DNA of 64,000 bases from Methanobacteriota archaeon (GTDB lineage: Archaea; Thermoplasmatota; Poseidoniia; Poseidoniales; Poseidoniaceae): assembly GCA_018650165.1 (NCBI GenBank), contig JABIGM010000033.1, positions 3,036 to 67,035 of the forward strand, read 5' to 3'. This document shows positions 7,386 through 52,200 of this stretch, piece by piece; the first letter of the stretch is position 1; each line of letters begins with the position of its first letter. The notes beneath the pieces were generated by a model. That model was not told the DNA's origin. It ran no database searches and saw only the letters and a list, made by a program, of their open reading frames with translations. The translations under genes were made by a program, and so were the position numbers.

Positions 7386-7443
7386 GTTACTGCCGACACT
7401 GCATTCGTACTTGAAGACAAGCCTCTTATGAGCCCTATAGGGC

Positions 7444-30885: not shown

Positions 30886-30892
30886 CCACCTA
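30886..30892 (-). promoter_or_regulatory. Shine-Dalgarno TAGGTGG overlapping the giant gene stop codon (translational coupling to the 140-aa gene)
   Basis: The minus strand reads aaaaagTAGGTGGtagtgtgATG. GGTG(A/G) is complementary to the conserved archaeal 16S 3' end. Confidence 0.55.
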
Positions 30893-33800
30893 CTTTTTGG
30901 GGACCAGCGACTCAATGTATTGGTGCCCATAGTGTGACCATTGGTCCATTGTCCAGCCTGTAGGTAATCCCGACGGAGGAATTGGCGGGCCAGGTGCTAA
31001 TGGAACTGCACCCTCAACATTCGGAGTTTCGGCTTGGCCGATAGATGGCACTAACTTTCCATCCATGTTTTCCTCAACTTCCGCAGTATGGTCCGATTCA
31101 TCTACTTCCTCACCACGTCTAATCTTTCTAATTTGGACCATTGTCCAAACTGCATAAGACATCGCACCGAGTGCAATTAGATACATTACAACAGACAATT
31201 GTGAGTCGGCAACTTGGTTTGCAAGTGCCGTACCATCTCTGTCTACTTCTCCCTTAATCAAGAGTGGAGTAATAGATATCCTTTCCTTTTCCACACCGGA
31301 ATCAAGGAGGAGGAGGCGGTGATCTAGAGTGTCTCCGACCTCGCCATCTGCAATAGCCAATAGCTTCACTTGGATTGTTTTTCCAGATGATACCGAAATA
31401 TCTACTGAAGATAATGTCTCCCAGTTTTCACCACTGGTCAGGCGTTGCAGAACAAATGTCACATTTCCTGAAGCCCCTGAATTCCTCGCCTCAACAGTGA
31501 GGGAAACCGACTCGTCAACAATCGGTGTAGGATTTGACCAAGACCACAACGTATCTGCTGCTCTGAGGCTTACATCCGGTCCTGTCAGAGCAAGAGGCCA
31601 TGATGCAAGTGGTGCTTCGAGTGTGTTACCGTCGCTGTCGTAAGGATTTCCAGAAGCATCTGAGCCAGTAACCCAGACATCAATTGTATATGATGGAAGA
31701 AGCATTGTCGCTCCACCATCGGTTAAATCGATGTAACCAGTCCAAAAGAATTGGTCCTCAAATGGAGTGGTATCAGGTAGTGGTGATGAACCTCTACTTA
31801 TCTCGGCTTCCCCAGCACGTACAAGATAGTGCATTACTGCTGGGTTTTCAATAGTAAATCCTTGGTCATCACGGGTTTCGAGCATTACTTGTAGATTTCC
31901 TGCAAGTGAAATAGGTATATCTTCACCTGGAGCAATTCCTGCTAAGTATACTGCATGGATAGTTGGTCGTTCACTGTCAACCGCTAGTCGCAAACGTGGT
32001 TTGAATTCGGATTCATCCTCTGCCAGACCAGGTAGATCTACTAGTTTCGCTCGCAAATCTAAATGGCCACTACGGACATCAGGAACTAGCATGTCAATAC
32101 TGAAATATCCACCATCTCGACTGGTAGTTGTCCATTCGTTTTCGTAGTCACCTAGAACGATTGTGAAAGTACCTGATGGAGCGGGTGTCTCATCTTCAGC
32201 GAAAAGTACACGGCCACTGAATCGCAGTGCTTGGCCAGCTCCGATTAGGGTCTCATCAAATTCAGGGTTGTAGTGGTTGGTTCCATCTCGTAATTCAATT
32301 GCCAAAATGTGTCCTGGCTGTGTATCGAACCGCAAATCATTGTCTAGGCTCCATAAGTCATTCCCTAATCCTGCTTTGTGAATATTACAAGGAACATTAT
32401 CCTCTAATCCACATGGCTTATCTTCAACCCAAACCTTTGGGATGAAATGCGATTCACCGTTTGTATCCCAGATTTCAGGGAAATTCCAAGTCAACTGGAA
32501 TTTTATCGATACAATCATTCGAGATTCGTTTTCCGGATCGAGGATAACAGAGGAGTACAGATTAGAAACTGCTAATCCAGAACCGCCACTTTCTAAAAAT
32601 AATTCTGGTAAGCCATCATTGGTCTTTGACAGGTAGGCAAAAATTGAGGTTTCATCATCATCAAAATCACCTGCGAGTGCTAATTGGACATAGTCAACAT
32701 CCCACCAGCCATTGATGTCTGAAACCATGAACGTAGCGGTATAAGACACACCAGGATGGAGAGGCTCTAGGTCATCGTGGCCCATGATTGTTGAATTATC
32801 AACATCCATTACTGGTTCAAATTCTTCACGTATCACATACCAGGATAGTGAATTATCCCATTCGGGAATTACTTCTCCCGGTCTGTCGCCACAATATTGT
32901 TCGCTAGACATGTCACAGACTGGTGCACCACCCATTGCAATCACATTTCCTTGCCCATCTTGGCCGGTAATATAGAATGCAACTTTGTCACCATGCAATA
33001 GCATTGAATCGTCTATCAGTCCATTGAAAATATTGAGACCACCCGCCCTTATTTCTGGTGTAGTCAGTGTTTTTGAACGGTATTCAATTGGTTCGGGAAG
33101 ACCATTAAAATTGGAATCGTCACACTTCTCATGCTCTCCTGCTTCACAACCCACCCAATAGTGTAGGTCTGCGGTTTGAGGAGGGTCTACCGAATCTTGT
33201 ATGATAACCTCAATTGCTTGCCCGCCAGGAGATGGTGGTCCCTTGTGCATTTCTGCAGATTTGGTTGGGCTAGCAAACAAAACAAGCGGAGCATTTCCAT
33301 CAAAAATCAATTTAATTGTATTATATCCGGGATTTACATAGGTTGAACCGGTTGCCAAATTTATAGCTTCAACCCTCAGAACCATTCCGCCAGGAGCAGA
33401 TTCAATAGGTGAAGTGAAGGTAATATTATATTGGCCAAATGCGGGATTTCCTTCTGAGTGAAGAACACTAGGTTCTCCAATTGGGACTCCATCGAAAGTT
33501 ACATTTTGGCCTAGTACTCGTAAATCAAATTCACCTGCTAAAGGTGAAAATGCAGAATTCTCAAAGTTTATTGCTCCAGCAATTGAAAGATTAAATCCGC
33601 CTCTAACCCAGTCACCTGGGTACAATTCTCTGCCGGTCTCTTCCCAAACGCGCATTCCATCTAACTGAATGTCATTCTCGATGTTAAGTGACAAAGTATC
33701 AGTTGTCCATGCAGTGATTTGAGGACCTAGATCATCATTCATCGAAACGATTGCTTCCATCCGCCTTTCATCATCCCATGTCCAGTTTACACGCATTGGC

Positions 33801-36238
33801 ATCTTCACAGATACCGTGCCTTCACTATCCATTGTCGAGGTGCAATTTCCAACATCAAAACTCACTATTTCATTAACATCATCTACAACACTACATGAAT
33901 CTCCACGTAGCCATTTGAATGCAGGATTGCCTCCATGTGAATTGTTTAATCCGATTGTTGCTTCAGTCACTTTATCGACCAAATCACCATGACCAAGTCG
34001 AACTACTAGGTTTCGATAAACGCCGTCAGGAGTTACCAGTCCCCCCTCTAGACTTGCATCGAGCACACGTGTCTTCAATCGATATTCAATATTTAATTCA
34101 GTCAGTTTTACTCTTCCGGGAGTATTTGCTTTGACTGCAATTGTAATTTCCACGGTTCCAACGCCATTATCAGGAATGTGGCTGTTGAAAGCATCAACCA
34201 ATCCGGGAGCTTCTGAAACAACACTTCCAACAGGTGAATCATCAGATGCAACCACTGAACTTTCGTTGAGGAAAAGGATAGATTTCCAATCCCACACGTT
34301 GTCATCTCCTACATCCAGTTGGGGTGCGTCTGGATATCCTTCTTCATACCAGAGAATGAAAGAGTCCACTTTCGGCGTCAGAGAGTTATCACTTGTCGCT
34401 AACAATACCGAATAAAGTAATTCATTTCCAGCACCTTGAGTTGAAAATGAAACTTCTTGATTATTGATTGCATCTTCCCAAGTTGTGCCATTATCATTGG
34501 AAACCTTGACTTCTAATGACGATGATGTAGGCTCATCAGCCTGCCATACGGCCCGAACTTTACCGACATTTGTTCCGGTTGAAACACGCTGACTAGTCCA
34601 ATCACCTGTTGTGTCATATGAGGTAGCATATTCCAGAGAGAGCCACCAAGAAACAGCAGAAGAACCAATCAGTTGCATTTTCCAAATTAATTCATTTCCT
34701 GGATGTGCGAAGTGGATAGTTTGGTTTTTCTCAACAGCTTCCCAGTGGGTACCATTATCGGCACTAACCCAGTAATCAACTCGATCTCCCTGGCTTGGTG
34801 CTGACCAGTGATTTTGTACATTTACTGCAATAACATCATCCGTAGTGACAATTGTATCTCCAACCCATGTAGTTGTACCAGGAGCAGGGGTTGTTGAATA
34901 GGAAAGCCCCATACCTAGTTCACGATAGTATAGAGTTTTAGAGCCCCATGTCGAATAGCCAGTATCAACTGTAATCAACCTCTGTCCGTCATAGTGCAGT
35001 CCAAATCCTTTGGCTGTGATGTCGATTGACCCTGCTTGTGGCACTAGTGATGATGACGTTCCAGATAGAGCCCATGCACTAATTTGGTCGGTGTCTGTGT
35101 AGTACAATCCCTTCATACAACGCATGTAGAAATAGTTAGAGTGTACAGTCAAGCCATGAACATTGCTTGTGGATTTGCCACATTCAGTGGATGAAGATGC
35201 CCCAGCTGAGAATGAATACATTTCTTCGCCCTTAGTAAATTGTCCATTATCTCCAAAGTCGTATGATACAATACGCCTTTGCTGTCCATGAACTATCCAG
35301 ATTTTGTCAGTTTCTCGATCATATGAGATTCCATTATATTCTCCATATGGCTGTCCAATGTCATAGGAATCTATACAATTCCATGTCCAATCATTTGAGA
35401 CATCAATTGCAAGAACTCTGAGGTGCTGTGTTGGAGTTGATGATGAATAAGAATATTTGTAGGTCGAAAATATACCATATAGGATTTCTTCATCAGTTAT
35501 TGTCCAGTCCTTGAAACCATAGGCCTTGTAGTAAGTTGAACTTGGGTCTTGAGGGAGAGCACACGCTGCTTCACGTTGTAAATCAACAACAATATCTCTG
35601 CTAACATTATTCGGGTGCATACGGTTGACTACTTTGTCAAATGAGGTCCCAGTAAAGGTTGACATGAAGAGCCAATCATGGTTACGAATGATTGCACCTT
35701 GGCCCTGTGCCATAAAGTTTTGACTTGTCATCTTTATTTGATTGCTGAATCGATTTTCAGTTGAGTTTGAAGTATGCGGTTGTCTAACTGCAAAACTACC
35801 ATTGTCGAGCCAAGATGATGTTCCGGAATTGATATCCTCATCGACCGCATGCGGTGCAAATATTACGTCTCCAGAATCAAATCCAAGAGTCAAATCACCA
35901 CTTCGTGAATCAGCCCGATTTGCTTCTCCATCCATCCATTCTTCATACGTGTCAGTAGAAACCTGCGACCAACCTGTCGATGACGCCCCCGAAAGTGTAA
36001 CTTGTACATCAAGAACCTCAGCCCCCTTCGGAATTGCAACTTTCGTGGTCTTATCCGAACCACCTTGATAGAGAGCAATATTCTCTATACTGCCATCTGA
36101 AAAGGTATAGATGTGCCTCGATGAACCTGCTGCTTCAGCCTCGCCCACAAAGGTTTCTGAAAGCGGGCTCAACGGTGTTAGTACTAGTAGCAAAAGCATC
36201 ATTATCAGGGCTGCACGGGAAGTAAAACTCTGCGACAT
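30890..36238 (-). CDS. Giant type-I surface protein (1782 aa) with propeller-like N-terminal region, Asp-box (BNR) modules, Ig-like domains, a TM and a conserved cytoplasmic tail
   Basis: Signal MSQSFTSRAALIMMLLLLVLTPLSPLS. Asp-boxes SADNGTHW and SNDNGTTW. TM LSVVMYLIALGAMSYAVWTMVQIRKIRR. The tail ends PPIPPSGLPTGWTMDQWSHYGHQYIESLVPKK. SD TAGGTGT lies 5 nt upstream of ATG 36238. Confidence 0.85.
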   Translation of the reverse strand: MSQSFTSRAALIMMLLLLVLTPLSPLSETFVGEAEAAGSSRHIYTFSDGSIENIALYQGGSDKTTKVAIPKGAEVLDVQVTLSGASSTGWSQVSTDTYEEWMDGEANRADSRSGDLTLGFDSGDVIFAPHAVDEDINSGTSSWLDNGSFAVRQPHTSNSTENRFSNQIKMTSQNFMAQGQGAIIRNHDWLFMSTFTGTSFDKVVNRMHPNNVSRDIVVDLQREAACALPQDPSSTYYKAYGFKDWTITDEEILYGIFSTYKYSYSSSTPTQHLRVLAIDVSNDWTWNCIDSYDIGQPYGEYNGISYDRETDKIWIVHGQQRRIVSYDFGDNGQFTKGEEMYSFSAGASSSTECGKSTSNVHGLTVHSNYFYMRCMKGLYYTDTDQISAWALSGTSSSLVPQAGSIDITAKGFGLHYDGQRLITVDTGYSTWGSKTLYYRELGMGLSYSTTPAPGTTTWVGDTIVTTDDVIAVNVQNHWSAPSQGDRVDYWVSADNGTHWEAVEKNQTIHFAHPGNELIWKMQLIGSSAVSWWLSLEYATSYDTTGDWTSQRVSTGTNVGKVRAVWQADEPTSSSLEVKVSNDNGTTWEDAINNQEVSFSTQGAGNELLYSVLLATSDNSLTPKVDSFILWYEEGYPDAPQLDVGDDNVWDWKSILFLNESSVVASDDSPVGSVVSEAPGLVDAFNSHIPDNGVGTVEITIAVKANTPGRVKLTELNIEYRLKTRVLDASLEGGLVTPDGVYRNLVVRLGHGDLVDKVTEATIGLNNSHGGNPAFKWLRGDSCSVVDDVNEIVSFDVGNCTSTMDSEGTVSVKMPMRVNWTWDDERRMEAIVSMNDDLGPQITAWTTDTLSLNIENDIQLDGMRVWEETGRELYPGDWVRGGFNLSIAGAINFENSAFSPLAGEFDLRVLGQNVTFDGVPIGEPSVLHSEGNPAFGQYNITFTSPIESAPGGMVLRVEAINLATGSTYVNPGYNTIKLIFDGNAPLVLFASPTKSAEMHKGPPSPGGQAIEVIIQDSVDPPQTADLHYWVGCEAGEHEKCDDSNFNGLPEPIEYRSKTLTTPEIRAGGLNIFNGLIDDSMLLHGDKVAFYITGQDGQGNVIAMGGAPVCDMSSEQYCGDRPGEVIPEWDNSLSWYVIREEFEPVMDVDNSTIMGHDDLEPLHPGVSYTATFMVSDINGWWDVDYVQLALAGDFDDDETSIFAYLSKTNDGLPELFLESGGSGLAVSNLYSSVILDPENESRMIVSIKFQLTWNFPEIWDTNGESHFIPKVWVEDKPCGLEDNVPCNIHKAGLGNDLWSLDNDLRFDTQPGHILAIELRDGTNHYNPEFDETLIGAGQALRFSGRVLFAEDETPAPSGTFTIVLGDYENEWTTTSRDGGYFSIDMLVPDVRSGHLDLRAKLVDLPGLAEDESEFKPRLRLAVDSERPTIHAVYLAGIAPGEDIPISLAGNLQVMLETRDDQGFTIENPAVMHYLVRAGEAEISRGSSPLPDTTPFEDQFFWTGYIDLTDGGATMLLPSYTIDVWVTGSDASGNPYDSDGNTLEAPLASWPLALTGPDVSLRAADTLWSWSNPTPIVDESVSLTVEARNSGASGNVTFVLQRLTSGENWETLSSVDISVSSGKTIQVKLLAIADGEVGDTLDHRLLLLDSGVEKERISITPLLIKGEVDRDGTALANQVADSQLSVVMYLIALGAMSYAVWTMVQIRKIRRGEEVDESDHTAEVEENMDGKLVPSIGQAETPNVEGAVPLAPGPPIPPSGLPTGWTMDQWSHYGHQYIESLVPKK

Positions 36239-36300
36239 AGAATACACCTACACACCGCTCAGACGCCATAACTCTTGAATTAACCGGCGCCTGGTCAGTT

Positions 36301-36330: not shown

Positions 36331-39300
36331 TCAAGCGGTATTTCGACTGTCATATCGAATCGGTGAAGAATCGCCTCTAAGGCCATCAACCTCATCGTCC
36401 TTGACTTCAAACCAATCAACTAGCCAGTCTCCATCTGTATCCCAATTCAAAGGATCGCTGCCTTCCGCAATATGGTCATCATCCAAATCGAGGAGGTACC
36501 AACCCTTTTCGTGTTCGCCCAATTCAATTGCGGGAGCCCGATTTAAGTTTCCAACATAGTAAACATCCCAATCATCTGTAAGATCACCAGAACACAAGGT
36601 TACATCGTCCCCTACATCCAATACCAAGAAATCGGTGTCCATGTCATTGATGATTAGTGCATAACTCTCATCTGCGATATTCTTCTTATTCATTCCAAGA
36701 TAATTTGTTGTATCTTCAGTAACCTCACCCAAGCCGAGGGTGAAGGCTCTAAATTGCCACCACTCGGTGATAACTGAGCCATTCCAAGTTTCCCCAGAAA
36801 GTCTTACGGAGTCGGGAGAATCTAGGTTAGGGTCTGCTATTGCATAAAATTCCATGAAGTTAGTGTATGGAGTATAGACGCAAGTAGCACTGCAATCCCA
36901 GTTCCCATCTTGATCAGGATCATAGTTAGCATCCGCAGGATTTGCGGGATTAAATGTAGCCCAGGCCCATCCTAATGCCGGTCGAGAAAGTGTACCTAGG
37001 TTTTGAGAGAGGGGTCGGCATGAAGAGGTATTTGAGGTACAGCTCCCACCTGTTGAAGCATCGATCCATTGTACCTCAATATTCAATCGCGAGGAGTAGT
37101 TGTCATTACTTTCATTCCACCCTTTTGCATACTCATACCAATCAGGTAGCATATCGCCATCTGTATCATTATCCATTGGGTTTATTCCATATTTGAAAAC
37201 TTCACGACCATCTGAAAGATTCCAGTCTCGGTCGTGAGATATCACCATACCGCCTGCTACTTCTGTGTTGAAAGTTACTGAATCGCCATCAGAGTCATTT
37301 GTATCCGGTCTTGTACCATTCAAGTATTCCATATGGTTTGTAAATGGAAGGTCGCCAATTCCATTTTGGATGACCTCCCCTGAAGGAGTAAATTGTCGAT
37401 TCTCCCATGTACCTTGAACTGCAGGACTATCAAATGAAGTTCGATTATACCATCCATCACTATCAGGGTCATAGTCGATGTCGAATGGATTTACTGGATT
37501 GGTTGCCCAATGGTTCTGAGTTGTTGGATCTGGCATCCCATAAACCGCATAACAGAATTCCCAACCATCATCAATTCCATCTTGGTCCGAGTCAACGTTG
37601 GTTGGGTCTGTAATTCCAAATAAGGTCCGGTTGAAAGTATTGGGATCTTCAGAATTAATCATATCCATTCTTGCTGTGGAAGCGGAATCCTTACTTCGGA
37701 AATTATTGTAAATCGCCCTGCGTGCTTCAAGTTCAGTACTACCTTCTTCGACATATGCATCTACTGCATCATCACCAAATCCGATTAGTCCTGCACCAGT
37801 GGATAAACGAGTGTCATATTTACCATATACGCGAGATTCATATTCTCTTTTATTCGTAAATTGTTCTTCAAGTGAAATATTTCCATCTGCATTACAATCA
37901 ACTGAATCTAAATCACTGTCGAGCCATTGGTCAGAGTCGATTAGTGGATTCATCGACCAACGGTTATTTTCAAGGTCCCAAGATGTAAACCAATATTCGA
38001 ATCCATCAATCATTCCATCACTGTCAGTATCTGCTAGTGTTGGGTCGGTAATTCCCATTAGAGTTGAGATGAAAGTATTAGCAATTCCAGTAGATTGCCA
38101 CTCTTGGAATTCTTCAAGATGGCGTTTACCTCTCTGACCCTTATCGATAATTATTGAGTAGACTCTTTGTGCTTTTTGTGTTGGATCATTAATATCACCA
38201 TCAACATGCATCAATGGAGCATCAAGCGGATGGTTTTCACCATTTTCGGGATTTGTGACTGCTAAGGAGAATTCTTGTGCATCTGTCAGTGCATCATTAT
38301 CTGCATCGAATGAACCATCACCGGGGACTAGTGGATTGAGAGTCCAAGTTTGTGCAGTATCATTCCATGCTGTGAAAAGTAATTCCAAACCATCAAGGAA
38401 GCCATCGGAGTCTGTGTCGGGATTAGTTGGGTCAGTAGTCCAGCCCGATACATTGATCAAATCTTGTCCGACAAATGAACCGAACGACTCAGGATTTGTG
38501 ATTCCTGGCCATTGCTGTAGAGTATATCCTGTGCCAATGGTGGTCACAAACCATTGCGGGCTTGTTCGGTTGGCATTTGTCTCTGATAGCGCAGGGTCGA
38601 TTGTATTGTATTCTTCCCAGTTACTCATTCCATCATCATCAGAATCATCCCACCTATCGGTTGCATCCAATGGATCAAGTGACCACTGTGAATCCAATAG
38701 TTGCCAACGTGCATACCAGATTTCCCACCCATCTGGCATACCATCAGAATCGGTGTCGGAATCTGTGGGATCTCCAGTTAAATCACCATCACCAAAGGTT
38801 GACTCTGGAGTCGCCCAATCAGATACATTTCGAAACAAGTCGGTTGAGAAATTATTTGGAATTACTTCTCCATCTAAACTCATGTTGCCATCAAATAAGT
38901 TGTCCTTAATATTGTACTCGAGCCAATTAACAAATGCTTCATTTTCATCGATTACGCCATTGTGATTGATATCATATCCATCTCCATCTGGATTCTCAAA
39001 TGCATCACTACCATTCAATGGGTTGATTCCAATTCGGCTAACATCCCATGTGCAAGCACCTCTCGCTTCCCAGCCATCGGGCAAATCATCACCATCAGAA
39101 TCTACATTATTAGGGTCAGAATCAGACCATGCCATTGCAGCGACTTCAGATTCATAGTGGCTTTCAAGTAAATCACCAGCAACACCTGCTGCCTTGATAA
39201 GTGTCCACTGATATTCACAAAGGTTGCTTAGACCATCGCCATCCGCATCCCAATTTGCATCAGCAGGGTCAAGTGGATCCATGGTCCAATTATTCGAACC

Positions 39301-42018
39301 AGTGAAAGAAGTTCCAATCCATCTTCGATGTTTAATTTCCCATCCGTCAGGCATTCCATCACCATCTGAATCAGGATTTGTTGCATCGGTTCCAGAATCA
39401 ATTCCAAGTGATGCTAGGTATGTTGCATTCGCTGCTTGGCCTGCAGCATCATCACAAATATGTTCAAAATCATATTGATTTGTGTAGTGGCACCAAAGTG
39501 GAGTCTCTTCATGGAACAGACCGAAATATTCAGCTCCATCACCAACACCATCGCCATCTGAATCAACAACTCGTGGGTCTGTCGCATTGTACCCTAGGCT
39601 TGTGCGCGCTGTGTAACGGAATTCGTCTAAATTACGCCATAATCTTTCGTTTATGGGGTCGGAGTCGAGATTTACGCCATCACCATCCGCATCAAGTAAT
39701 GCATCCCAAGGATCTGTTGGGTCCAAACCATAGCGGACCTCCCAACCATCTAGCATACCATCCGAATCCGAATCATTGGCCATAGGATCCATCAGCTCAA
39801 GATTAGAATATTTACCAGGTCCTATTCCGAGGAATACTGTGTCTACTCCAGAAACTTGATGAATCTCAATCGCTGAAATATGCCCGGGTACCCATTCTTG
39901 ATTGGTCATCCCATATACTGCGGAATAACCACCGTTTAAAGCCCACATTCCCCAACCGGAACCAACAATAATTTCGTTACCAGTAGAGCCTATAGAATAG
40001 ATTTCATTTGTAGCAGCAACTGTAGTGCCATCAATACCCTGGTGCTCATAATCTCCACTGTGGGTGATCAAACCAGAAAGTAAGTCCATTCGATGTAATC
40101 CCGAAGGTGTTCCAACCCAAACCACTTGCATTGCACCGCCTTCGGGCCCATCTGGAACCAAGTCGTTAACAGTCGCAGGATTCCCTCCACCCAATGCTCC
40201 AATTGCTCGTAATTCATCGATATTGGAAGCGATTGATGTTGGTTCGAATGAATAGTAGAATTTCCAATTTGGAATTGCTGCATCTCTTGCAGAAGCGGTT
40301 TCAACTGTGAATAAACCAACATCTGTACCAACGTATAGCGTAAGCGGCCCCGAAGAAACATCAACATGCGCTATGGAAGTAGCAGTTGCGTTCCCACTAT
40401 TCATGGCATCAGAAATTCCATTGCCCATGGCCAATTGGGTTACTCCTAGTTCGTTAAATTGGAATACTGAACCAAACCCTCCAAAACCAAGAGCAATAAC
40501 ATACTGGTCGCCACCGTCATTCACAAGTTGAGCGCCTGCTGTATAGCGGCCAGCGAAATATGTCCACTCTGAAATATCATCGAGTATCCCGTCATCTACT
40601 TCTGAAACCCAAACTCCCGCTTCTGTAACCATAACGAGATAGTTGTCTAACAGAATCATGTCATTGAGATCATGTCCTTGTGGGAGTTCATAATTCACAG
40701 AGGTCGATTCTTCAAAATCAATAACTGTAATTCCTAATTTTGTGCCAACCCATAAATTAGTTCCGTTCGAAATTAATTCTCTCACATCATGGTTAATGAT
40801 AGAAATATCATCTTCACTTGCTTCTGCTGTTAGCTCTGGTGTTAGAAGATATTCTGCATAAGTCCCTTCGCTAGCACCTAATTCAACAGAACGCATTCCC
40901 GATTTTACAGTATTGCCATCATCTAAATGCACAAAATACTCTTCGAGAGTTGAAAGTTGTTCACCCACGCCGAGTGCTTCTTCAGAGCGTGCAGCATCTG
41001 CACTAATTATTCCATCACGGTTAGCATCCCAGCCATCGTTATCTAAATCCACCAGTGCATTTGAGCGGTTGAGAGGATTTAGTCCAAAGTGTATCTCCCA
41101 CCCGTCACTGATTCCATCTCCACTAGAAGGGAATAGTCTGCGATATTTTTCTCCATCGTAGTAGTACCGGTCACTATCCTCCCCAACTGGGTTTGTTCCC
41201 AGCCAGAGATATTCATCAATGGTATCGACAGTGCCATTGCGAGCACATGCAGATAGTATATTTTCAAGTAATGTAATATTTAAGTTCAAAGAAATGAACG
41301 GCCAGTCATATAGAATTGAAGATTCTGGACCAGGTGAATAACACCTCAGACCATCTAATTCAGTAGTCCAGTTAGCCGGTGCACCAAAAGAATACTCTTC
41401 CGGTGAAGTCAATAATTCATCAACAGTAAGGAAACCGTCACGATTTACATCGAATCCGTCTTCATCGGGGTCACTCTCAGCATCACTTGCATTCAGCGGG
41501 TCGAATTCATCACAGCGATACATTTTTTCCTCGGAATCAAAGCCTCCAAGTCTCTCGCACATATGAGCCTCGAAACCATCAGGCATACCGTCTCCATCAG
41601 TATCAGCAATCCTTGGATCGAGATACCATCGCTTTCCCGACTCGTTCAAGACACCGGTAAGTCCCCTCGTAAATCCGGGATCAACACACTGAGCCGGATA
41701 GGGCCAACAATATTCTTCGGTTGCATTTAGACCATCGATATCTATATCGACATAGGCATCGGATGCATTGTACCTATCCATACCTTTCATCACTACTGCA
41801 CGCCCATCTGTTGATGAGAAATTTACCCACTCACCGAATAGATTCTCGTGAACATCCGGGATCTTATCACCATCAGAATCTGTGGCTGGTGGACCTTCTC
41901 CTTCTGTTAGATTAGGGTTGGTTGTGGCTACATTCGAAATAGCAGGTAACTGTGAAACAAAAAACAGTCCAGATATTACTAGGAAGGTCATCAGAAGTGT
42001 TGACTGTGAGCGGCGCAT
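36331..42018 (-). CDS. Giant secreted or N-terminally anchored protein (about 1895 aa) with more than 20 thrombospondin type-3-like calcium-binding repeats and a central beta-propeller-like region
   Basis: N-terminal MRRSQSTLLMTFLVISGLFFVS. Repeats DTDGDGMPDGFE, DSDGDGMPDGWE, DTDSDGMPDGWE, DTDSDGFLDGLE, DTDSDGMIDGFE, DSDQDGIDDGWE, DTDGDMLPDWYE, DTDGDWLVDWFE. Propeller-like LWVGTKLGITVIDF, LYVGTDVGLFTV, VWVGTPSGLHRMD. No C-terminal TM. An alternative ATG lies at 42057. Confidence 0.85.
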   Translation of the reverse strand: MRRSQSTLLMTFLVISGLFFVSQLPAISNVATTNPNLTEGEGPPATDSDGDKIPDVHENLFGEWVNFSSTDGRAVVMKGMDRYNASDAYVDIDIDGLNATEEYCWPYPAQCVDPGFTRGLTGVLNESGKRWYLDPRIADTDGDGMPDGFEAHMCERLGGFDSEEKMYRCDEFDPLNASDAESDPDEDGFDVNRDGFLTVDELLTSPEEYSFGAPANWTTELDGLRCYSPGPESSILYDWPFISLNLNITLLENILSACARNGTVDTIDEYLWLGTNPVGEDSDRYYYDGEKYRRLFPSSGDGISDGWEIHFGLNPLNRSNALVDLDNDGWDANRDGIISADAARSEEALGVGEQLSTLEEYFVHLDDGNTVKSGMRSVELGASEGTYAEYLLTPELTAEASEDDISIINHDVRELISNGTNLWVGTKLGITVIDFEESTSVNYELPQGHDLNDMILLDNYLVMVTEAGVWVSEVDDGILDDISEWTYFAGRYTAGAQLVNDGGDQYVIALGFGGFGSVFQFNELGVTQLAMGNGISDAMNSGNATATSIAHVDVSSGPLTLYVGTDVGLFTVETASARDAAIPNWKFYYSFEPTSIASNIDELRAIGALGGGNPATVNDLVPDGPEGGAMQVVWVGTPSGLHRMDLLSGLITHSGDYEHQGIDGTTVAATNEIYSIGSTGNEIIVGSGWGMWALNGGYSAVYGMTNQEWVPGHISAIEIHQVSGVDTVFLGIGPGKYSNLELMDPMANDSDSDGMLDGWEVRYGLDPTDPWDALLDADGDGVNLDSDPINERLWRNLDEFRYTARTSLGYNATDPRVVDSDGDGVGDGAEYFGLFHEETPLWCHYTNQYDFEHICDDAAGQAANATYLASLGIDSGTDATNPDSDGDGMPDGWEIKHRRWIGTSFTGSNNWTMDPLDPADANWDADGDGLSNLCEYQWTLIKAAGVAGDLLESHYESEVAAMAWSDSDPNNVDSDGDDLPDGWEARGACTWDVSRIGINPLNGSDAFENPDGDGYDINHNGVIDENEAFVNWLEYNIKDNLFDGNMSLDGEVIPNNFSTDLFRNVSDWATPESTFGDGDLTGDPTDSDTDSDGMPDGWEIWYARWQLLDSQWSLDPLDATDRWDDSDDDGMSNWEEYNTIDPALSETNANRTSPQWFVTTIGTGYTLQQWPGITNPESFGSFVGQDLINVSGWTTDPTNPDTDSDGFLDGLELLFTAWNDTAQTWTLNPLVPGDGSFDADNDALTDAQEFSLAVTNPENGENHPLDAPLMHVDGDINDPTQKAQRVYSIIIDKGQRGKRHLEEFQEWQSTGIANTFISTLMGITDPTLADTDSDGMIDGFEYWFTSWDLENNRWSMNPLIDSDQWLDSDLDSVDCNADGNISLEEQFTNKREYESRVYGKYDTRLSTGAGLIGFGDDAVDAYVEEGSTELEARRAIYNNFRSKDSASTARMDMINSEDPNTFNRTLFGITDPTNVDSDQDGIDDGWEFCYAVYGMPDPTTQNHWATNPVNPFDIDYDPDSDGWYNRTSFDSPAVQGTWENRQFTPSGEVIQNGIGDLPFTNHMEYLNGTRPDTNDSDGDSVTFNTEVAGGMVISHDRDWNLSDGREVFKYGINPMDNDTDGDMLPDWYEYAKGWNESNDNYSSRLNIEVQWIDASTGGSCTSNTSSCRPLSQNLGTLSRPALGWAWATFNPANPADANYDPDQDGNWDCSATCVYTPYTNFMEFYAIADPNLDSPDSVRLSGETWNGSVITEWWQFRAFTLGLGEVTEDTTNYLGMNKKNIADESYALIINDMDTDFLVLDVGDDVTLCSGDLTDDWDVYYVGNLNRAPAIELGEHEKGWYLLDLDDDHIAEGSDPLNWDTDGDWLVDWFEVKDDEVDGLRGDSSPIRYDSRNTA

Positions 42019-42106
42019 CGGAATCACCGTCGAGCGCGGTAGCACCCAACTAGACATGAACCATTGAACCAGCCTTAATACAGTGATGGAGCATTGTTCA
42101 GACTAG

Positions 42107-46640: not shown

Positions 46641-49166
46641 TCATCGGCCCATCACGGCAGTGTGAACCATCATCTGAACTTCGCGCATTCTGGTTTGCGC
46701 ACCTAATTCCCGGAACACAGAAAGAGCACGTTGTAGGTATTCCGTCCTTCTTTGTCTATCAGGGGCAACACCACCTAACCTTGCAAGAAGTTCACCAATC
46801 TGCATACGCAAGTCATTTGCTTCTGAAATAATCAAGGCTTCACGGTAACGTTCGAGTGCTTCTTCTATCTTGCCACTGTCTTGTAGAACTTCGCCAAGCA
46901 GGATTGAAACTTCCACCAATGCGAGTGGATCTCCTGCCTCGCCCATGGTTGCAAGAGCGTCTGTATAGTGGTGGAGAGCGAGATCTGCATCTCCGGATTT
47001 GGCATAATACCGACCTAGCACGGCGCGAGCACGTGCATGCAAAATCGGGTCATCTGATGATTCTGAACGCTCATACGCTGACAAAGCATGGTCACGGGCT
47101 CGTGTATGCTCACCCAAATCTAACAAGGAACGTGCAAGAACTATTTCTGCAGAGATTAGGCTGAGTGAGTCATCAGATGCGAGAATAGATTCTACCTCAG
47201 AATATGCTTCCAATGCCTTGACTTTATCGCCACTCCTTCGCAAAATGTAGCCCATATTATTGTATGATCTAGCGGCACCGACTGCATCACCGATTTCAAT
47301 ATATAATTCCAACGACTTACGGTGCATGCTCAAACTTGAGTTCGAGTCACCGCGCTTCAGAGCAATGTCGGCAAGGTTCGAAAGTATGTCTGCAATTACA
47401 TCTTTCAAACCTGCGGCTTCAGCAGGAGGTCTTGCTTTGCTAAATGCTTCTTCGGCCTCATCAAATCTTCCCAATAAAGACAATACTTCACCACGAATTC
47501 TATCAATTCGGCAAGAACTTTCAGCGACTATCGAGTTGGTATCGATTGATTCTAGTAAACCAAGAAGTTCAATGTGTCCTTCTTTAATCAGATTACGACC
47601 TTGCTCAATCACAATTTGTGTCGCTTCCTCATGGCGCGAAGAGGCTATTAAATGGTAAATTAATTCCAAAGAAATATGGCTCCCAGCACTCTGTTTCTGG
47701 TACCATGATACCGCTTTGTTGTGCAACTCTTCTTTGGATTGTTCATCGAGACTTTGGAGCAAGAATTCTCTAATCAGGTCGTGAACGTCATAGGCATCAG
47801 AATCAGCATGCCTAGCTAACCCCGATTCGACGAGCGAATCTAGTTCGTCGATATTTAATCCCTGTTCGGTAATCGCTTCAAGGGGAATTGGTTCTCTGAA
47901 AATTGAGAGAGCGCCCAATAGTCGCTTCTGCTCTCCAGAGAGTTTGGAAAAGATTTCGATGTTGACATAGTTTTCTAGGGACTCGTGGAATGCACCCGCT
48001 GATGCACCCCGGTTGATTAACTCGAGAACTAAGGGGTGTCCACGGCTCAATGAGTGAATATAGAGTAACTTTTCCTGATCTAAATCATCAAATGCTGAAA
48101 GTAATGAGCGGGTCGATTCTTGGTCGAGTCCTTCCAGTGGAAGGACCAATGACACAATGCGACCATCTGCATCTTTTAGTGGCACTACTTGACGGAAAGA
48201 CCGTGAAAAAATTACTAATCCTACATCTCCTTCAAACTCTACAAGGTCACGTGATATCGCCTGTATGGTTTGATGAAGCACCTTGTCGTTTACCTTGTGG
48301 TAGTCATCTATGACAATCAAGGCAGAAGAACCAGAGAGCGCATCAGTGATTATTCGAGCTGCATCTACTGCTTGTGGTACCGGAGTTGCCGAAATGTAAT
48401 CAGCGAGCATAGGGTCTCCAATACTAGATAGCCAGTCTGCTATGCTCTCAAAGAATGCACGACTTCCATCCCAATCTTGACATCTATGATACAATAAATT
48501 TCTTCGGTGCATGAAGGATTCGATTACTTTAGCTGCCATCGATGTTTTTCCAATTCCTGCAATTCCTGGAATCATCAAGGTGGTGGATCTCGCTTCAAGT
48601 AAATTAACCATATTTTCGAGTTCGGTCGAGCGACCATAAAAATGCCTGAGCCGAGGTAAATCACCTAGGCTAGTAACCAATTGTTTCTCAACATGTTTAG
48701 ATAAATCACGTTCAACTAAATCGGCAGAGAGAGAACGTACATCGAGTACTCCGTTATCATTGAGGTACCGAATTACATCCACTGGACGCATTGTAAATGG
48801 TATCTTATCCTGTATCTCACCAAGAGTAGAGGTGATTGTAGTCCCATCAGGAAGAATCGCTCTAAGCGGGAATTCACGAAGCCTCTTCCAAGTTTCTTCG
48901 GCAACATTCATTCCAGAATCCGTCAAGAAGTATGCCTTACGTTTACGGCTAACTCCCTGAACATGTGCTTGTCGTTCGACGAGGAAACCTTGGTCTTTCA
49001 ATCCAGAGATTGCTCTTGGCACGTTTGACCTTGCTATTGATACTGCATTTGCAATACCCATTTGCGATAACGCAAATGGTACTTCGACTGAACTCATGAA
49101 ATCTGAAAAATCAGACAAATGGAGCAGTATTCTCTCATGCACTCCTGGTTTTGGTCGTACAACCAT
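46641..49166 (-). CDS. wHTH - STAND/AAA P-loop NTPase - TPR signal-transduction regulator (841 aa)
   Basis: N-terminal winged helix: LSQMGIANAVSIARSNVPRAISGLKDQGFLVERQAHVQGVSRKRKAYFLTDSG. Walker A MIPGIAGIGKTSMA; Walker B ALIVIDDYHKV. C-terminal TPR-like repeats: ARSYNNMGYILRRSGDKVKALEAY, AVLGRYYAKSGDADLALHHY. SD GGAGGGTGA upstream. Confidence 0.8.
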   Translation of the reverse strand: MVVRPKPGVHERILLHLSDFSDFMSSVEVPFALSQMGIANAVSIARSNVPRAISGLKDQGFLVERQAHVQGVSRKRKAYFLTDSGMNVAEETWKRLREFPLRAILPDGTTITSTLGEIQDKIPFTMRPVDVIRYLNDNGVLDVRSLSADLVERDLSKHVEKQLVTSLGDLPRLRHFYGRSTELENMVNLLEARSTTLMIPGIAGIGKTSMAAKVIESFMHRRNLLYHRCQDWDGSRAFFESIADWLSSIGDPMLADYISATPVPQAVDAARIITDALSGSSALIVIDDYHKVNDKVLHQTIQAISRDLVEFEGDVGLVIFSRSFRQVVPLKDADGRIVSLVLPLEGLDQESTRSLLSAFDDLDQEKLLYIHSLSRGHPLVLELINRGASAGAFHESLENYVNIEIFSKLSGEQKRLLGALSIFREPIPLEAITEQGLNIDELDSLVESGLARHADSDAYDVHDLIREFLLQSLDEQSKEELHNKAVSWYQKQSAGSHISLELIYHLIASSRHEEATQIVIEQGRNLIKEGHIELLGLLESIDTNSIVAESSCRIDRIRGEVLSLLGRFDEAEEAFSKARPPAEAAGLKDVIADILSNLADIALKRGDSNSSLSMHRKSLELYIEIGDAVGAARSYNNMGYILRRSGDKVKALEAYSEVESILASDDSLSLISAEIVLARSLLDLGEHTRARDHALSAYERSESSDDPILHARARAVLGRYYAKSGDADLALHHYTDALATMGEAGDPLALVEVSILLGEVLQDSGKIEEALERYREALIISEANDLRMQIGELLARLGGVAPDRQRRTEYLQRALSVFRELGAQTRMREVQMMVHTAVMGR

Positions 49167-49220: not shown

Positions 49221-52200
49221 TTACTCTTGCGGTGGTGTGTAATTTGGATCTGCAACCCACTGGTTAGTTTGAGCATCCCAAATCCAGCCAGGGTGTTGAG
49301 GTTGAGCCGCAGGCATAGGAGCTGCTGCTGGTACCAAATCACCCGAAATAACTGAGTCGTGGAGATTGACATTCACATTTTGGACCATTGTTCCAGCAAC
49401 TGCTTGCTCTGCGGCTCTCGCTTTAGCCCAGGCGTAAGGATCTTCTTCCTTCTGTTGCTCTTGTGTCATTTCTGCAGCATCATCAAATTCTTCAAATTCG
49501 AGGAAGAAAAAGGTTCCAACTCCCAGAAGTACAGCCAGTGAAACAATTGCGATTACAACCCATAACCACGTTGGCATGCCTGCAGTTTCAGGCTCGCCGC
49601 TAGTGAGCATGATACTTGTTCCATCATTCTTACCGATTGTTTGGTCATTTTGGTCGAAATAGATACCATAACTTCCATCATCTCCTAACTGCGATGTAGA
49701 GATTTCCATTTTCCATGTCCCATCATCTTTGACCGTAGTTGAGTTCAAGTGTAAATCACCGCTAACAAGCCTAGCTTTAACTTGAGAACCGGGTAATCCA
49801 GTTCCTGTAAATAGGGCAGTGTCCTCAAAGGTTACAATTCCCACATCGGCTCTCTGTGCTGAAAATGTAACACCCTTGACAATGAAATTTACCTGATACG
49901 AATAAGAAACAGAATCATGAATATCCCTCGCTTCAAACATTACTCCAGACATCGACCAATCTGAGATTTCATTTGAAGATTGATACATTGAGTCCATTGG
50001 ATTGTAAATTGCTTTACCATCCGGAGTGATGCGAATATGGTAGGCATAATCATTGTCAATTGCTGTTTGTGGGTCATCATATATGTCGAATAGCAAGTGG
50101 CTCGATTCTGGACCTACGCCATCGGAGTCATTGAAGTAATCAAGCAAGTTGATTTCTAACCCTACTCCACACTTGTCGAATGAACTAGATTTTTCGTCAC
50201 AGAAAATTGTAATTGTTTCTATCCACCCAGATTCGTTGAAAGTTGGGGCGATATTATCAGCATCGGTCGGATTATCAATTACAACTCTGACAGTTTCAAT
50301 AATTGAATAATCGACACCGTCATATGACTTCACTTGGATTTCATATTGCTGGTCATGAATCAAGTCGCTGGTATCCCAATAAGTCTGCCATGCACCATTT
50401 GGCAAGAACGAAGTTACTGGGTCAGGTCCATTATTCAATTCGATACCACTAGCTAAATCTAAGATAGTAATCTCAACACGAGTTACTTGGCCATCATTGT
50501 CACGTGCTACACCACTGATGATGGTCTCTTCATCGGCTCTTACGCTTTCCATTGGCAGTGGCTCACTGATCTGGATAATCGGTATTCGGTTATCATTATC
50601 GATTGTGATTGTGACAGTAGCCGGGGTACAAATATCGATTATCTCATGGCAATAGTTTGAATCGCTTGCCCAAACTGCAAACGAATAATCACCACTAGGT
50701 AGGGATGAGAAATTCCAAGAATCAGACCAAACGGTTCCACCACCACTGTTTGCTGGATAGTTTGCCGAGTAATTATTTGGTCCAGTTACGCTGAACCAAA
50801 TATCTCTAATGTCACTACCCTGGACACCTTGATAGTCATCTGAAGAAGTCCCACTGAACAATACTTCTTGGCCATCGTGAGTTGAACCATCTAGAGGAGA
50901 TTCTAAAATAATGCTTGGAGGAGCAATATTCAACTTGAATACACGTGTGGTAACAATCGATTCATCTAGCCCATCATATGAGCGGACACGGAATGTTACA
51001 TCCTCTTCAAAGTGGTTTGCCATATCCCAATCAAAAGACCAAGTCTTGAATGGCCAGTTAGTCTTAGTCATCTCACCATTTGCGCCAGAGGTATCCGTTG
51101 CAAGGTACCAGTCGAGGCTTGCATGCGGTTGGATTTCGACTTTCTTAATGTCACCGAACTGTTTCAACCATGAATCATAGTCATTGAAATATGCTGGACC
51201 AATTCCATCGTGTGCCGAACCAGTAATTGTGATTGTTTGGGCAAAGGAAGTTCCATCATTTTGGTCAACACTTACCGATGGTGCCGTATTCGAAAGGTGA
51301 ATTACCTCATCGACCATTCCAGTCAAGGTGAACTCGTGCACTGATGTGCCTTTGCTGAATTTCTTTGCATCAACCGAGTATGTTGGCATTTCACGGTTTC
51401 CATTTTGACAATCAGGGTCCTGCCCATCAATCAATGTGTCACCATCATTATCTGCTCCATCTCCACAGGAGTCCTCTCCTGTATCCGTTGCAAGATGGTT
51501 CCAATTGGTGTCGATATGGAAATTAGATGGCAAAGTTACCCATGGAGTGAATCCATAAGCATCTGTTGTAACATTGTAAAGTGGCTTACCATTTGCATCC
51601 TTCATTGTGACGAGCGCTTCAGCAACTTGAGAATTGTCAGCCTTAACTTGGTAACGGACTAGCTCTCCTTGCTCTACCTGCACACCCCATGCGGTATTCT
51701 GGTTTTGGATGTGTATTTTGGAGCGGTCGAAATTTTGTATATCGGAATAAGTAAATGTAGTTGCATTCTGATTAACTTCCATTGACAGCGGCATGAAACG
51801 TGGTGGCCAATCTGCTGTAAGTGGGGCTTTGATACACTCAGTGAGATCCCATGGGCACTCTGCACCCATCCATGATAGTGAAACCGGATACATAATTCCT
51901 GCACCTGGGTCTGGCATGAATTCACTTTGAACAGCGACTCGAGACTCAGTAACATTGTAGATTTGAGTAGCGTTGGTGTAGGTATTACCAGAAAAGTATG
52001 CTATTGATGCATACTTGTTACCATAATTATCATCATAAAGTGAAATATTTGCGGCAAATTCTCCTACTTCGATATCGTTGTCTTGAGCATTTACAATTCC
52101 GCCCTTGATTCTGAATCCATCGCCTGCATTGTTAGTAACAGTGTTACCAATAAAAGTTGCAGATGACATGTATACATGGAAGGCTGGACATTGGAAGTCT

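What the first reader, a model, noticed from the sequence alone, without database searches (positions are those of the whole stretch)
30893..30970. Copy 2 of the tail peptide: codon-level evidence for selection rather than recent DNA exchange
I compared the coding DNA of the two tails: ccg tta ccg cct agc ggg tta ccg cct ggt tgg tcg atg gag caa tgg caa cat tac gga cac caa tgg, versus cca att cct ccg tcg gga tta cct aca ggc tgg aca atg gac caa tgg tca cac tat ggg cac caa tac. At least ten codons differ only synonymously (Pro, Ser, Gly, His, Tyr codons) while the amino acids are kept. The similarity is therefore maintained at the protein level and is not a recent gene-conversion tract.
Basis: seen in the sequence. 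Interest (0 to 1): 0.7.

Follow-up and report, generated by a model that had tools for sequence, protein, structure and literature searches.

The report
Conserved cytoplasmic tail on archaeal surface proteins
Two unrelated giant surface proteins of a marine group II archaeon end in the same ~27-residue tail on the inside of the cell. Selection, not DNA copying, keeps it the same, and it proves to be an undescribed tag carried by many membrane-anchored proteins across this abundant, uncultured ocean lineage.

Summary

- **The two copies.** Copy 2 (window 30914-30991, minus strand) ends a 1785-aa surface protein. Copy 1 (2556-2633) ends a 1657-aa membrane-anchored S8 protease. Over 26 codons, 19 residues are identical, yet 12 of those 19 codons differ synonymously. 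Independent codon choice would give 10.1, so no DNA-level similarity remains (pS 0.84, pN 0.20).
- **Orthologues.** All 37 metagenomic and 3 genomic orthologues of the copy-2 protein keep the tail. So do all 8 orthologues of the protease that were aligned.
- **Selection.** Over 8 independent pairs with unsaturated dS, dN/dS is 0.07 for the motif and 0.28 for the linker (p = 9e-6).
- **Distribution.** The consensus is GPP[LIV]PxxGLPxGW[TS]MEQWx[HY]YGxQ[WY]L. It occurs in at least 357 places in Poseidoniales genomes, in 626 protein clusters, and on at least 9 unrelated ectodomain families.
- **Placement.** It always sits beyond a transmembrane helix and a variable linker, on the inferred cytoplasmic side. 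In one family it is at the N-terminus of a type II protein.
- **Prior knowledge.** Pfam, NCBIfam, the PDB and the searched literature do not describe it.

The most likely role is a small proline-arm plus aromatic-helix unit that docks surface proteins to a shared cytoplasmic partner. That partner is unknown.

The parts
30890..36247 (-). Gene for the copy-2 protein (1785 aa as listed; likely ATG start at 36238). It is a giant surface protein with no Pfam or NCBIfam domain, laid out as signal peptide, ectodomain, one TM helix, then a cytoplasmic tail.
36131..36238 (-). Signal-peptide-like N-terminus of the copy-2 protein (MSQSFTSRAALIMMLLLLVLTPLSPLSETFVGEAEA).
   Evidence: Read from the translation. 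Inferred from hydrophobicity, not tested with a predictor.
31136..31198 (-). Single transmembrane helix of the copy-2 protein (LSVVMYLIALGAMSYAVWTMV). It is followed by the basic cluster QIRKIRR (31115..31135), which places the tail in the cytoplasm by the positive-inside rule.
   Evidence: dN/dS 0.035 in orthologues.
30992..31135 (-). 48-aa acidic cytoplasmic linker of the copy-2 protein. It varies in sequence and in length (41-73 aa) among 38 orthologues.
   Evidence: dN/dS 0.281. AlphaFold pLDDT is below 50 for the modelled part.
30914..30991 (-). Copy 2 of the tail module, the subject of the finding: GPPIPPSGLPTGWTMDQWSHYGHQYI.
   Evidence: HMM E 6.6e-21; predicted helix MDQWSHYGHQYIESL, pLDDT about 77; dN/dS 0.072
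30893..30913 (-). Variable last 7 residues after the motif (ESLVPKK), before the stop codon at 30890..30892.
2535..7508 (-). Gene for the copy-1 protein (likely ATG start at 7385). It is a membrane-anchored subtilisin-like protease (Peptidase_S8 at aa 293-582, then CARDB and Ig-like domains) with one TM helix and a 138-aa proline-rich cytoplasmic linker.
3048..3122 (-). Transmembrane helix of the copy-1 protein (LFGVLPLWAASSIVGAIILGVLIVA), followed by RRIKK (3033..3047).
2556..2633 (-). Copy 1 of the tail module: GPPLPPSGLPPGWSMEQWQHYGHQWL. It is followed by AQQGQQ and the stop codon.
   Evidence: HMM E 3.5e-20; predicted helix at residues 17-32, mean pLDDT 78

Best explanation
The feature is copy 2 of a roughly 27-residue cytoplasmic tail module with the consensus G-P-P-[LIV]-P-x-x-G-L-P-x-G-W-[TS]-M-E-Q-W-x-[HY]-Y-G-x-Q-[WY]-L. 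Marine group II archaea (Poseidoniales) place it at the membrane-distal end of the cytoplasmic segment of many unrelated, single-pass, membrane-anchored surface proteins.

Shown:
- The motif is under strong purifying selection.
- It is inherited vertically with each protein family.
- It always follows a TM helix and a variable linker.

Inferred:
- It lies in the cytoplasm. After the TM helix come R/K clusters, and in one family the motif is N-terminal, ahead of a K/R-flanked signal anchor.
- It forms a proline-rich extended arm followed by a capped amphipathic helix. One face of that helix carries M, W, Y/G, W and L.
- This small unit is a docking site for a shared cytoplasmic partner. The partner could be a scaffold, a cytoskeletal or membrane-microdomain protein, or a sorting or turnover factor. 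Docking would let the cell position, retain, cluster or regulate its whole set of anchored proteases and adhesin-like proteins through one interface.
For: **Selection**
- Window paralogues: pS 0.84, pN 0.20. 12 synonymous-different codons observed against 10.1 expected from independent codon choice.
- Motif dN/dS 0.072 against linker 0.281, p = 8.7e-6.
- Motif retained in 37/37 metagenomic orthologues of the copy-2 giant plus its 3 genomic orthologues, and in all 8 aligned orthologues of the copy-1 protease.

**Breadth**
- At least 357 tblastn-confirmed stretches in species-representative genomes. The best 80 loci are all Poseidoniales; two apparent exceptions are mis-binned contigs.
- 626 protein clusters at 50% identity with E<=1e-3 in an exhaustive HMMER search.

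**Modularity**
- At least 9 unrelated ectodomain families carry it: S8 protease, PKD/CARDB proteins, NPCBM_assoc, NHL/TSP3, arylsulfotransferase and domain-less giants.
- The two window proteins share nothing else of significance.

**Position rule**
- 80 of 82 long ORFs have a TM helix within 200 aa upstream of the motif. Linkers are 34-136 aa and rich in Pro and Ala.
- R/K residues follow the TM directly.
- P0098 is a separate gene on 4 contigs that carries the motif at its N-terminus, before a KR-flanked TM helix and an ectodomain.
- P0151 has an N-terminal TM helix, then the motif, then a SAP domain.
- The motif therefore follows the cytoplasmic side of the membrane, not the C-terminus as such.

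**Specific recognition rather than bulk chemistry**
- Polar residues (E17, Q18) and glycines (G9, G13, G23) are invariant or nearly so, as are the aromatic residues.

**Structure**
- AlphaFold2 gives a helix over M-E-Q-W...L in both copies, with pLDDT about 77-87. The preceding arm is non-regular and the linker is disordered.
Against: - No partner has been identified.
- No ORF family is recurrently adjacent to three or more different tail-bearing families, so genomic linkage gives no clue.
- The cytoplasmic orientation rests on the positive-inside rule and on architecture, not on experiment.
- The structure models use only 6 sequences and reach moderate confidence. Whether the proline arm packs on the helix could not be inspected.
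- Foldseek found no analogue.
- Self-association or membrane-interface binding would fit most of the same data.
- The lineage is uncultured, so nothing about function has been tested.
Confidence: 0.55

Rival explanations
1. The tail acts without a separate partner. Its aromatic amphipathic helix either lies on the cytoplasmic face of the membrane or binds other copies of itself, and so clusters the anchored surface proteins into patches or a lattice.
For: The helix has a hydrophobic face made of M, W, Y/G, W and L (sequence). Several tail-bearing proteins occur per genome: up to 3 among the top 80 loci, and 2 in this window. No linked partner gene was found.
Against: The hydrophobic moment is modest (0.24-0.43 per residue), mean hydrophobicity is about 0, and net charge is -1 to -2 with no flanking basic residues. 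From general knowledge, that is a poor fit for binding an anionic membrane surface. Polar positions E17 and Q18 and three glycines are invariant, which points to a defined fold or interface. The motif sits at the far end of a 34-136-aa flexible linker, not next to the membrane.
Confidence: 0.2
2. The tail is a turnover or quality-control tag (degron). A cytoplasmic or membrane-bound protease or unfoldase recognises it and so controls the level of surface proteins.
For: It is terminal, exposed on a disordered linker, and shared by many membrane proteins. Many family members add a second terminal acidic-hydrophobic peptide, LLDDLDF.
Against: From general knowledge, known degrons are short and loosely defined; this is a 27-residue block with about 13 near-invariant positions. 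In many proteins a 28-81-aa extension follows the motif, so it is not always terminal. No direct evidence exists.
Confidence: 0.1
3. The tail works as a nascent chain inside the ribosome. Its polyproline and tryptophan residues would pause translation, coupling the end of synthesis to membrane insertion or to expression of a downstream gene.
For: The block is about as long as the ribosomal exit tunnel holds (general knowledge). It contains PP[LIV]PP-type stretches and conserved Trp, and usually ends 2-10 residues before the stop codon. Some tail-bearing genes lie in tandem.
Against: The motif also occurs at the N-terminus of a type II protein and 28-81 residues before the stop in many proteins. 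Downstream genes are unrelated between families, for example adenylate kinase after copy 1. The distance from the TM helix varies from 34 to 136 aa, which does not fit a force-sensing pause.
Confidence: 0.05
4. The tail is a C-terminal sorting signal of the archaeosortase, exosortase or sortase kind, cleaved off while the protein is attached to the envelope.
For: It is a short C-terminal homology region shared by many otherwise unrelated surface proteins within one lineage, several per genome. That is how such signals were first recognised (PMC1569441, abstract listed).
Against: The order of elements is wrong. Here the TM helix and basic cluster come first, and the motif follows 34-136 aa later on the cytoplasmic side. 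No NCBIfam CTERM model matches. One family carries the motif at the N-terminus.
Confidence: 0.04
5. The similarity comes from recent DNA exchange (gene conversion) or a DNA-level repeat, not from protein function.
For: Two copies lie 28 kb apart on the same strand.
Against: DNA identity is only 52/78. Synonymous sites are saturated (pS 0.84), and the synonymous differences equal the random expectation. Tails follow protein family, not genome. dN/dS is 0.07.
Confidence: 0.01

Closest known systems
Tripartite C-terminal sorting signals (PGF-CTERM/archaeosortase A, PEP-CTERM/exosortase, LPXTG/sortase, MYXO-CTERM/myxosortase, GlyGly-CTERM/rhombosortase)
   Same: A short conserved terminal homology region found on many unrelated surface proteins of one lineage, several per genome, next to a single C-terminal TM helix.
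   Different: In those systems the signature motif precedes the TM helix on the outer side. The protein then ends with a few basic residues, and the tag is cleaved. Here the motif lies 34-136 residues after the TM helix and basic cluster, on the inferred cytoplasmic side, and can also be N-terminal. No CTERM model matches, and no processing enzyme is implied.
WW domain (Pfam PF00397)
   Same: Both start with (G)LPxGW(S/T/E)M. The only PDB profile hits, all sub-significant, are WW domains of Salvador and Itch (E 0.03-0.4). The PP[LIV]P arm resembles the PPLP ligands of class II WW domains; that comparison is from memory and is only a lead.
   Different: The similarity covers only 8 profile columns (hhalign probability 27%). 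Pfam WW does not match. The block is too short for three strands and lacks the second Trp-x-x-Pro. AlphaFold predicts a helix, not a sheet.
PP-fold (pancreatic polypeptide) and Trp-cage miniproteins
   Same: About 30 residues that combine a proline-rich extended arm with an amphipathic helix carrying aromatic residues. From general knowledge, that can be a self-contained fold.
   Different: There is no sequence homology and no Foldseek match. Packing of the arm on the helix could not be checked here. Those peptides are secreted hormones or designed molecules, not membrane-tethered tails.
Conserved cytoplasmic tails of eukaryotic surface-protein families (Giardia VSP CRGKA tail; Plasmodium TRAP tail with a subterminal Trp linked to the motor, PMC3406075 abstract listed; integrin and cadherin tails)
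   Same: Variable ectodomains, one TM helix, and a conserved cytoplasmic tail that couples a whole family of surface proteins to a common intracellular machinery. This is the closest analogy for how it may work.
   Different: Those are eukaryotic systems with unrelated sequences and known partners. No such system is described for archaea in the literature searched.
Acidic-hydrophobic C-terminal hub peptides (bacterial SSB tip DDDIPF, FtsZ C-terminal peptide)
   Same: The ...LLDDLDF/L extension that follows the motif in one large subfamily has the same character.
   Different: The resemblance is recalled from memory and was not tested. This extension is absent from both window copies.

Membership tests
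Poseidoniales cytoplasmic tail module (family defined here) | Match to the consensus GPP[LIV]PxxGLPxGW[TS]MEQWx[HY]YGxQ[WY]L | tested here: met
   Both window copies score E about 1e-20 against the tail HMM. The consensus comes from 225 unique tails.
Poseidoniales cytoplasmic tail module (family defined here) | Tethered by a variable linker to a single TM helix, on the side that carries the basic cluster | tested here: met
   Copy 2: TM at 31136..31198, then QIRKIRR and a 48-aa linker. Copy 1: TM at 3048..3122, then RRIKK and a 138-aa linker. The same layout holds in 80 of 82 long homologues.
Poseidoniales cytoplasmic tail module (family defined here) | Purifying selection on the motif, stronger than on the linker | tested here: met
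   dN/dS 0.072 against 0.281, p = 8.7e-6.
Archaeosortase/exosortase/sortase-type C-terminal sorting signals | Signature motif immediately N-terminal to the TM helix (extracytoplasmic side) | tested here: not met
   The motif lies 34-136 aa C-terminal to the TM helix.
Archaeosortase/exosortase/sortase-type C-terminal sorting signals | Protein ends with a short basic tail directly after the TM helix | tested here: not met
   About 80-170 more residues follow the basic cluster.
Archaeosortase/exosortase/sortase-type C-terminal sorting signals | Match to a curated CTERM model (NCBIfam/TIGRFAM) | tested here: not met
   No such hit for either whole protein or either tail at E<=1.
Archaeosortase/exosortase/sortase-type C-terminal sorting signals | Co-occurrence with a dedicated sorting enzyme | not tested
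   No whole-genome phylogenetic profiling is possible with these tools.
WW domain (PF00397) | Match to the Pfam WW model | tested here: not met
   No Pfam family at E<=10 for six tail sequences.
WW domain (PF00397) | About 35-40 residues with two signature Trp 20-22 apart and a C-terminal Pro | tested here: not met
   The Trp residues are at motif positions 14, 19 and 26. In most proteins the chain ends 2-10 residues later.
WW domain (PF00397) | Profile-profile similarity over the whole domain | tested here: not met
   hhalign aligns 8 columns (LPxGWxM) with probability 27%. PDB profile hits have E 0.03-0.4.
WW domain (PF00397) | Three-stranded antiparallel sheet | tested here: not met
   AlphaFold2 predicts a 15-16-residue helix in both copies, at moderate confidence.
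PP-fold / Trp-cage-like miniprotein (analogy, not homology) | Polyproline arm packed against the aromatic face of an amphipathic helix | tested here: inconclusive
   The arm-plus-helix layout is predicted. Coordinates could not be inspected, and Foldseek gave no match.

The most novel reading that the evidence does not exclude
The tail is the handle of an undescribed archaeal system. In it, one cytoplasmic hub (a scaffold, cytoskeletal element or membrane-microdomain protein) holds the whole anchored surface proteome of marine group II archaea through a single 27-residue docking module. This would be a prokaryotic counterpart of adhesion-receptor tails in eukaryotes. It might couple outside events, such as particle attachment or protein degradation, to the cell interior. 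In the SAP-fused variant it might tether the membrane to DNA.
Probability: 0.3. Interest if true: 0.85.

Novelty: new variant of a known kind. Interest (0 to 1): 0.6.

Why it matters
Poseidoniales are described as the most abundant planktonic archaea in ocean surface waters and have no cultured member (PMC6461757). How their large proteases and adhesin-like proteins are held and organised is therefore unknown.

A single motif under strong selection, shared by at least nine families of membrane-anchored surface proteins, gives three things:
- a sequence signature for cataloguing the anchored surface proteome of the lineage;
- a defined 34-residue bait that can be synthesised to search for the intracellular partner without a culture;
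- an example of a cytoplasmic tag on prokaryotic surface proteins, whereas the known sorting tags lie on the outer side of the anchor.

It also shows that a conserved terminal peptide in giant proteins can be told apart from gene conversion by codon analysis alone.

Tried and rejected
- **Word-indexed protein search with the two tails.** It returned only 4 short fragments, so it was no use for measuring distribution. It was replaced by the genome scan and the exhaustive HMMER search.
- **Pfam and NCBIfam on whole proteins and on isolated tails.** No model covers the tail.
- **Literature.** No paper holds the strings GWTMEQW, GWSMEQW and similar. The Poseidoniales comparative-genomics paper (PMC6461757) does not contain the words 'C-terminal', 'transmembrane' or 'archaeosortase'. 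Several broad searches returned only unrelated eukaryotic or bacterial papers.
- **Linked partner gene.** All ORFs of 80 loci plus the window were clustered. No family lies next to three or more different tail-bearing families.
- **Viral contigs.** No copy was found, so there is no sign that viruses borrow the tag.
- **Foldseek of the 34-residue model against the PDB.** Nothing useful came back; the model is too short.
- **WW-domain membership.** Rejected.
- **Pairwise dN/dS against distant orthologues.** dS was saturated, so ratios were undefined. This was solved by fetching closer metagenomic orthologues and pooling independent pairs.
- **Bacterial-looking hits L059 and L052.** These are mis-binned Poseidoniales contigs.
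- **A regex for the different Trp-rich tail of ORF 49221..53558.** It found no second example in the loci held.
Full report
**What is at the coordinates.** The finding lies on the minus strand, at the 3' end of ORF 30890..36247 (1785 aa). The protein ends ...GAVPLAPGPPIPPSGLPTGWTMDQWSHYGHQYIESLVPKK*. The conserved block is 30914..30991. The other quoted string matches exactly at 2559..2627(-), with none expected by chance. It lies at the end of ORF 2535..7508, which ends ...AGPPLPPSGLPPGWSMEQWQHYGHQWLAQQGQQ*.

**Codon check.** Over the 26-codon block, 7 codons are identical, 12 differ only synonymously and 7 differ non-synonymously. That is 26 of 78 nucleotides. Nei-Gojobori counting gives pS 0.84, which is saturated, and pN 0.20. 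If the 19 conserved residues were encoded by two independent draws from the window's own codon usage, 10.1 codons would differ; 12 do. No DNA similarity remains beyond what the amino acids impose, so recent gene conversion is excluded.

**The two carriers are otherwise unrelated.**
- Copy 1 sits on a subtilisin-like protease: Peptidase_S8 at E 3.6e-40, plus CARDB and Ig-like domains.
- The copy-2 protein has no Pfam or NCBIfam hit at all.
- BLASTP between the two finds only the tail at a significant level (23/44 identical, E 2e-7), plus one marginal Ig-like segment.
- A six-frame HMM scan of the window finds exactly these two copies.
- Both proteins have a signal-peptide-like N-terminus, a very large ectodomain and one TM helix, followed directly by a basic cluster (QIRKIRR, RRIKK). 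A linker of 48 or 138 residues then leads to the motif. By the positive-inside rule the tail is cytoplasmic. This is an inference.

- A genome scan and a metagenome scan recovered orthologues of both giants.
- Every one of 37 metagenomic orthologues of the copy-2 protein (60-98% identity over the last 300 residues) keeps the motif. Its 3 genomic orthologues do too. The linker changes sequence and length (41-73 aa).
- All 8 aligned orthologues of the protease, at about 45-75% identity, keep the motif as well.
- Against distant orthologues dS is saturated. Even so, motif dN (0.03-0.23) is 2-6.6 times lower than linker dN (0.15-0.63) in 11 of 11 comparisons.
- Pooling 8 phylogenetically independent pairs with unsaturated dS gives the values below.

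| Region | dN/dS |
|---|---|
| Ectodomain | 0.099 |
| TM helix | 0.035 |
| Linker | 0.281 |
| Motif | 0.072 |

- The motif differs from the linker with Fisher p = 8.7e-6. It is as constrained as the ectodomain.

**It is a lineage-wide module, not a pair.**
The best 80 loci are Poseidoniales, from both Poseidoniaceae and Thalassarchaeaceae.
- Two loci labelled Verrucomicrobiales and Salinimicrobium are 96% and 82% identical at the DNA level to Poseidoniales loci over many kilobases. They are mis-binned contigs.
- An exhaustive HMMER search of 1.84 billion representative proteins found 626 clusters at E<=1e-3. The match is almost always at the extreme C-terminus.
- In the 80 loci the motif sits on 91 ORFs. 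By ectodomain they fall into at least 9 unrelated groups: PKD/CARDB proteins that often lie in tandem pairs, two groups with no significant or only sub-threshold Pfam matches, the S8 proteases, NPCBM_assoc/CARDB proteins, the copy-2 giants, an NHL/TSP3 protein, an arylsulfotransferase-like protein and one other.
- The consensus from 225 unique tails is GPP[LIV]PxxGLPxGW[TS]MEQWx[HY]YGxQ[WY]L. Positions that were not used to select the sequences are also almost invariant: P3, P4, P6, G9, L10, M16 and L27.
- Tails are more alike within an ectodomain family across genomes (0.77) than between families inside one genome (0.64-0.75). They therefore descend with their proteins and are not homogenised.

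**The position rule.**
- In 80 of 82 long ORFs a TM helix lies within 200 residues upstream of the motif. Linkers are 34-136 aa and rich in Pro and Ala.
- R/K residues follow the helix directly.
- Two variant architectures are informative.
  - P0098 (237 aa) begins MEAAPPVPPGGIPVGWTMEQWNHYGHQWL..., then has a K/R-flanked TM helix and an ectodomain. It is a separate gene on four independent contigs, 35 nt downstream of an unrelated gene.
  - P0151 and P0088 carry the motif and then a C-terminal SAP domain (Pfam E 4e-12). P0151 has an N-terminal TM helix; P0088 is a shorter sequence that lacks that end.
- The motif therefore follows the cytoplasmic side of the membrane, not the C-terminus as such. 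This argues against a C-terminal processing signal.

**Shape.**
- AlphaFold2 used a shallow 6-sequence alignment. For copy 1 it predicts a non-regular proline arm (residues 1-16) and a helix (17-32), with pLDDT about 86 over residues 11-30.
- For copy 2 it predicts a helix over MDQWSHYGHQYIESL with pLDDT about 77. The linker is below 50.
- The [ST]-M-E-Q start reads as a helix capping box, and M, W, Y/G, W and L fall on one face. Both points are read from the sequence.
- The helix is weakly amphipathic and carries a net negative charge.
- Foldseek found nothing.

**Comparison with what is known.**
- Neither Pfam nor NCBIfam has a model that matches the tail.
- A profile search of the PDB gives only sub-significant hits to WW domains through GLPxGW. 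Profile-profile alignment covers 8 columns at 27% probability. The block is also too short for a WW domain and is predicted to be helical, so it is not one.
- It resembles archaeosortase and exosortase tags in being a terminal tag shared by a lineage's surface proteins. The order of elements is inverted, and no CTERM model matches.
- The nearest analogues in how it may work are the conserved cytoplasmic tails of eukaryotic surface-protein families.
- No paper in the searchable library contains the motif strings. The main comparative study of the order does not mention such tails.

**Mechanism.**
- I commit to a cytoplasmic docking module for a shared partner (about 0.55). The reasons are the invariant polar and glycine positions, its presence on many unrelated families, its placement at the end of a flexible tether on the cytoplasmic side in both membrane orientations, and the second terminal peptide (LLDDLDF) found in one subfamily.
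- Against this, no partner is known, and no linked gene was found.
- The rivals are self-association or membrane binding (0.2), a turnover tag (0.1), a nascent-chain pause (0.05), a cleaved sorting signal (0.04) and DNA exchange (0.01, refuted).

**Verdict.** The feature is a real, strongly selected and apparently undescribed tail module of marine group II archaea. Its function remains open.

Noticed in passing
window 49221..53558 (-), tail at about 49224..49300: A third giant (1445 aa; Beta_helix and Big_7 domains) also ends with a TM helix and a cytoplasmic tail. That tail is a different Trp-rich peptide, ...QPQHPGWIWDAQTNQWVADPNYTPPQE*. The tail HMM does not detect it, and no second example was found in the loci held.
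   Followed up: partly
window 55057..63948 (-) and 36331..42057 (-): The 2963-aa ORF ends with a TM helix and only a short basic tail (KTARKGSSSRF). The 1908-aa ORF, rich in TSP3-like repeats, has no C-terminal TM helix. Not every giant in the window carries the motif.
   Followed up: partly
L012:8097-11732, L020, L031 and others; P0022, P0074, P0080, P0142: In one large subfamily a 28-81-aa extension rich in Pro, Gln and Ala follows the motif. The extension ends in a conserved acidic-hydrophobic peptide, ...LLDDLDF/L. This may be a second short docking motif.
   Followed up: no
P0151, P0088 (representative proteins): Small proteins in which the tail motif is followed by a C-terminal SAP domain (Pfam SAP E 4e-12); P0151 also has an N-terminal TM helix. 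A membrane-tethered, putatively DNA-binding module in an archaeon is unusual.
   Followed up: partly
L081:781-1494 (also L082, L083, L084); P0098: A type II membrane protein that carries the motif at its extreme N-terminus. It is its own gene, with a 35-nt AT-rich spacer, on four independent metagenome contigs.
   Followed up: yes
window 2634..3047 (-) and orthologues L001, L003, L023, L036, L048, L062, L078, L080: The S8-protease family has a second conserved cytoplasmic block just after the TM helix (ELVAPDAH..PD..G.RR.E..D....LTSGEVS.EEIA.A..QS). Its linker contains GLPP/GMPP proline repeats.
   Followed up: no
L059 and L052: Contigs deposited in bins labelled Verrucomicrobiales and Salinimicrobium are 96.4% and 82% identical over 7.7-12.9 kb to Poseidoniales contigs. 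They are probably mis-binned.
   Followed up: yes
window 46641..49166 (-): An 841-aa protein with STAND-type AAA ATPase, TPR repeats and an N-terminal HTH-like segment lies between the giant surface-protein genes.
   Followed up: no
L012, L041, L042, L054, L055, L059, L065, L068, L069, L071: Two paralogous tail-bearing PKD/CARDB proteins of about 1200 aa lie in tandem. One has the short tail ending and the other has the LLDDLDF extension.
   Followed up: no
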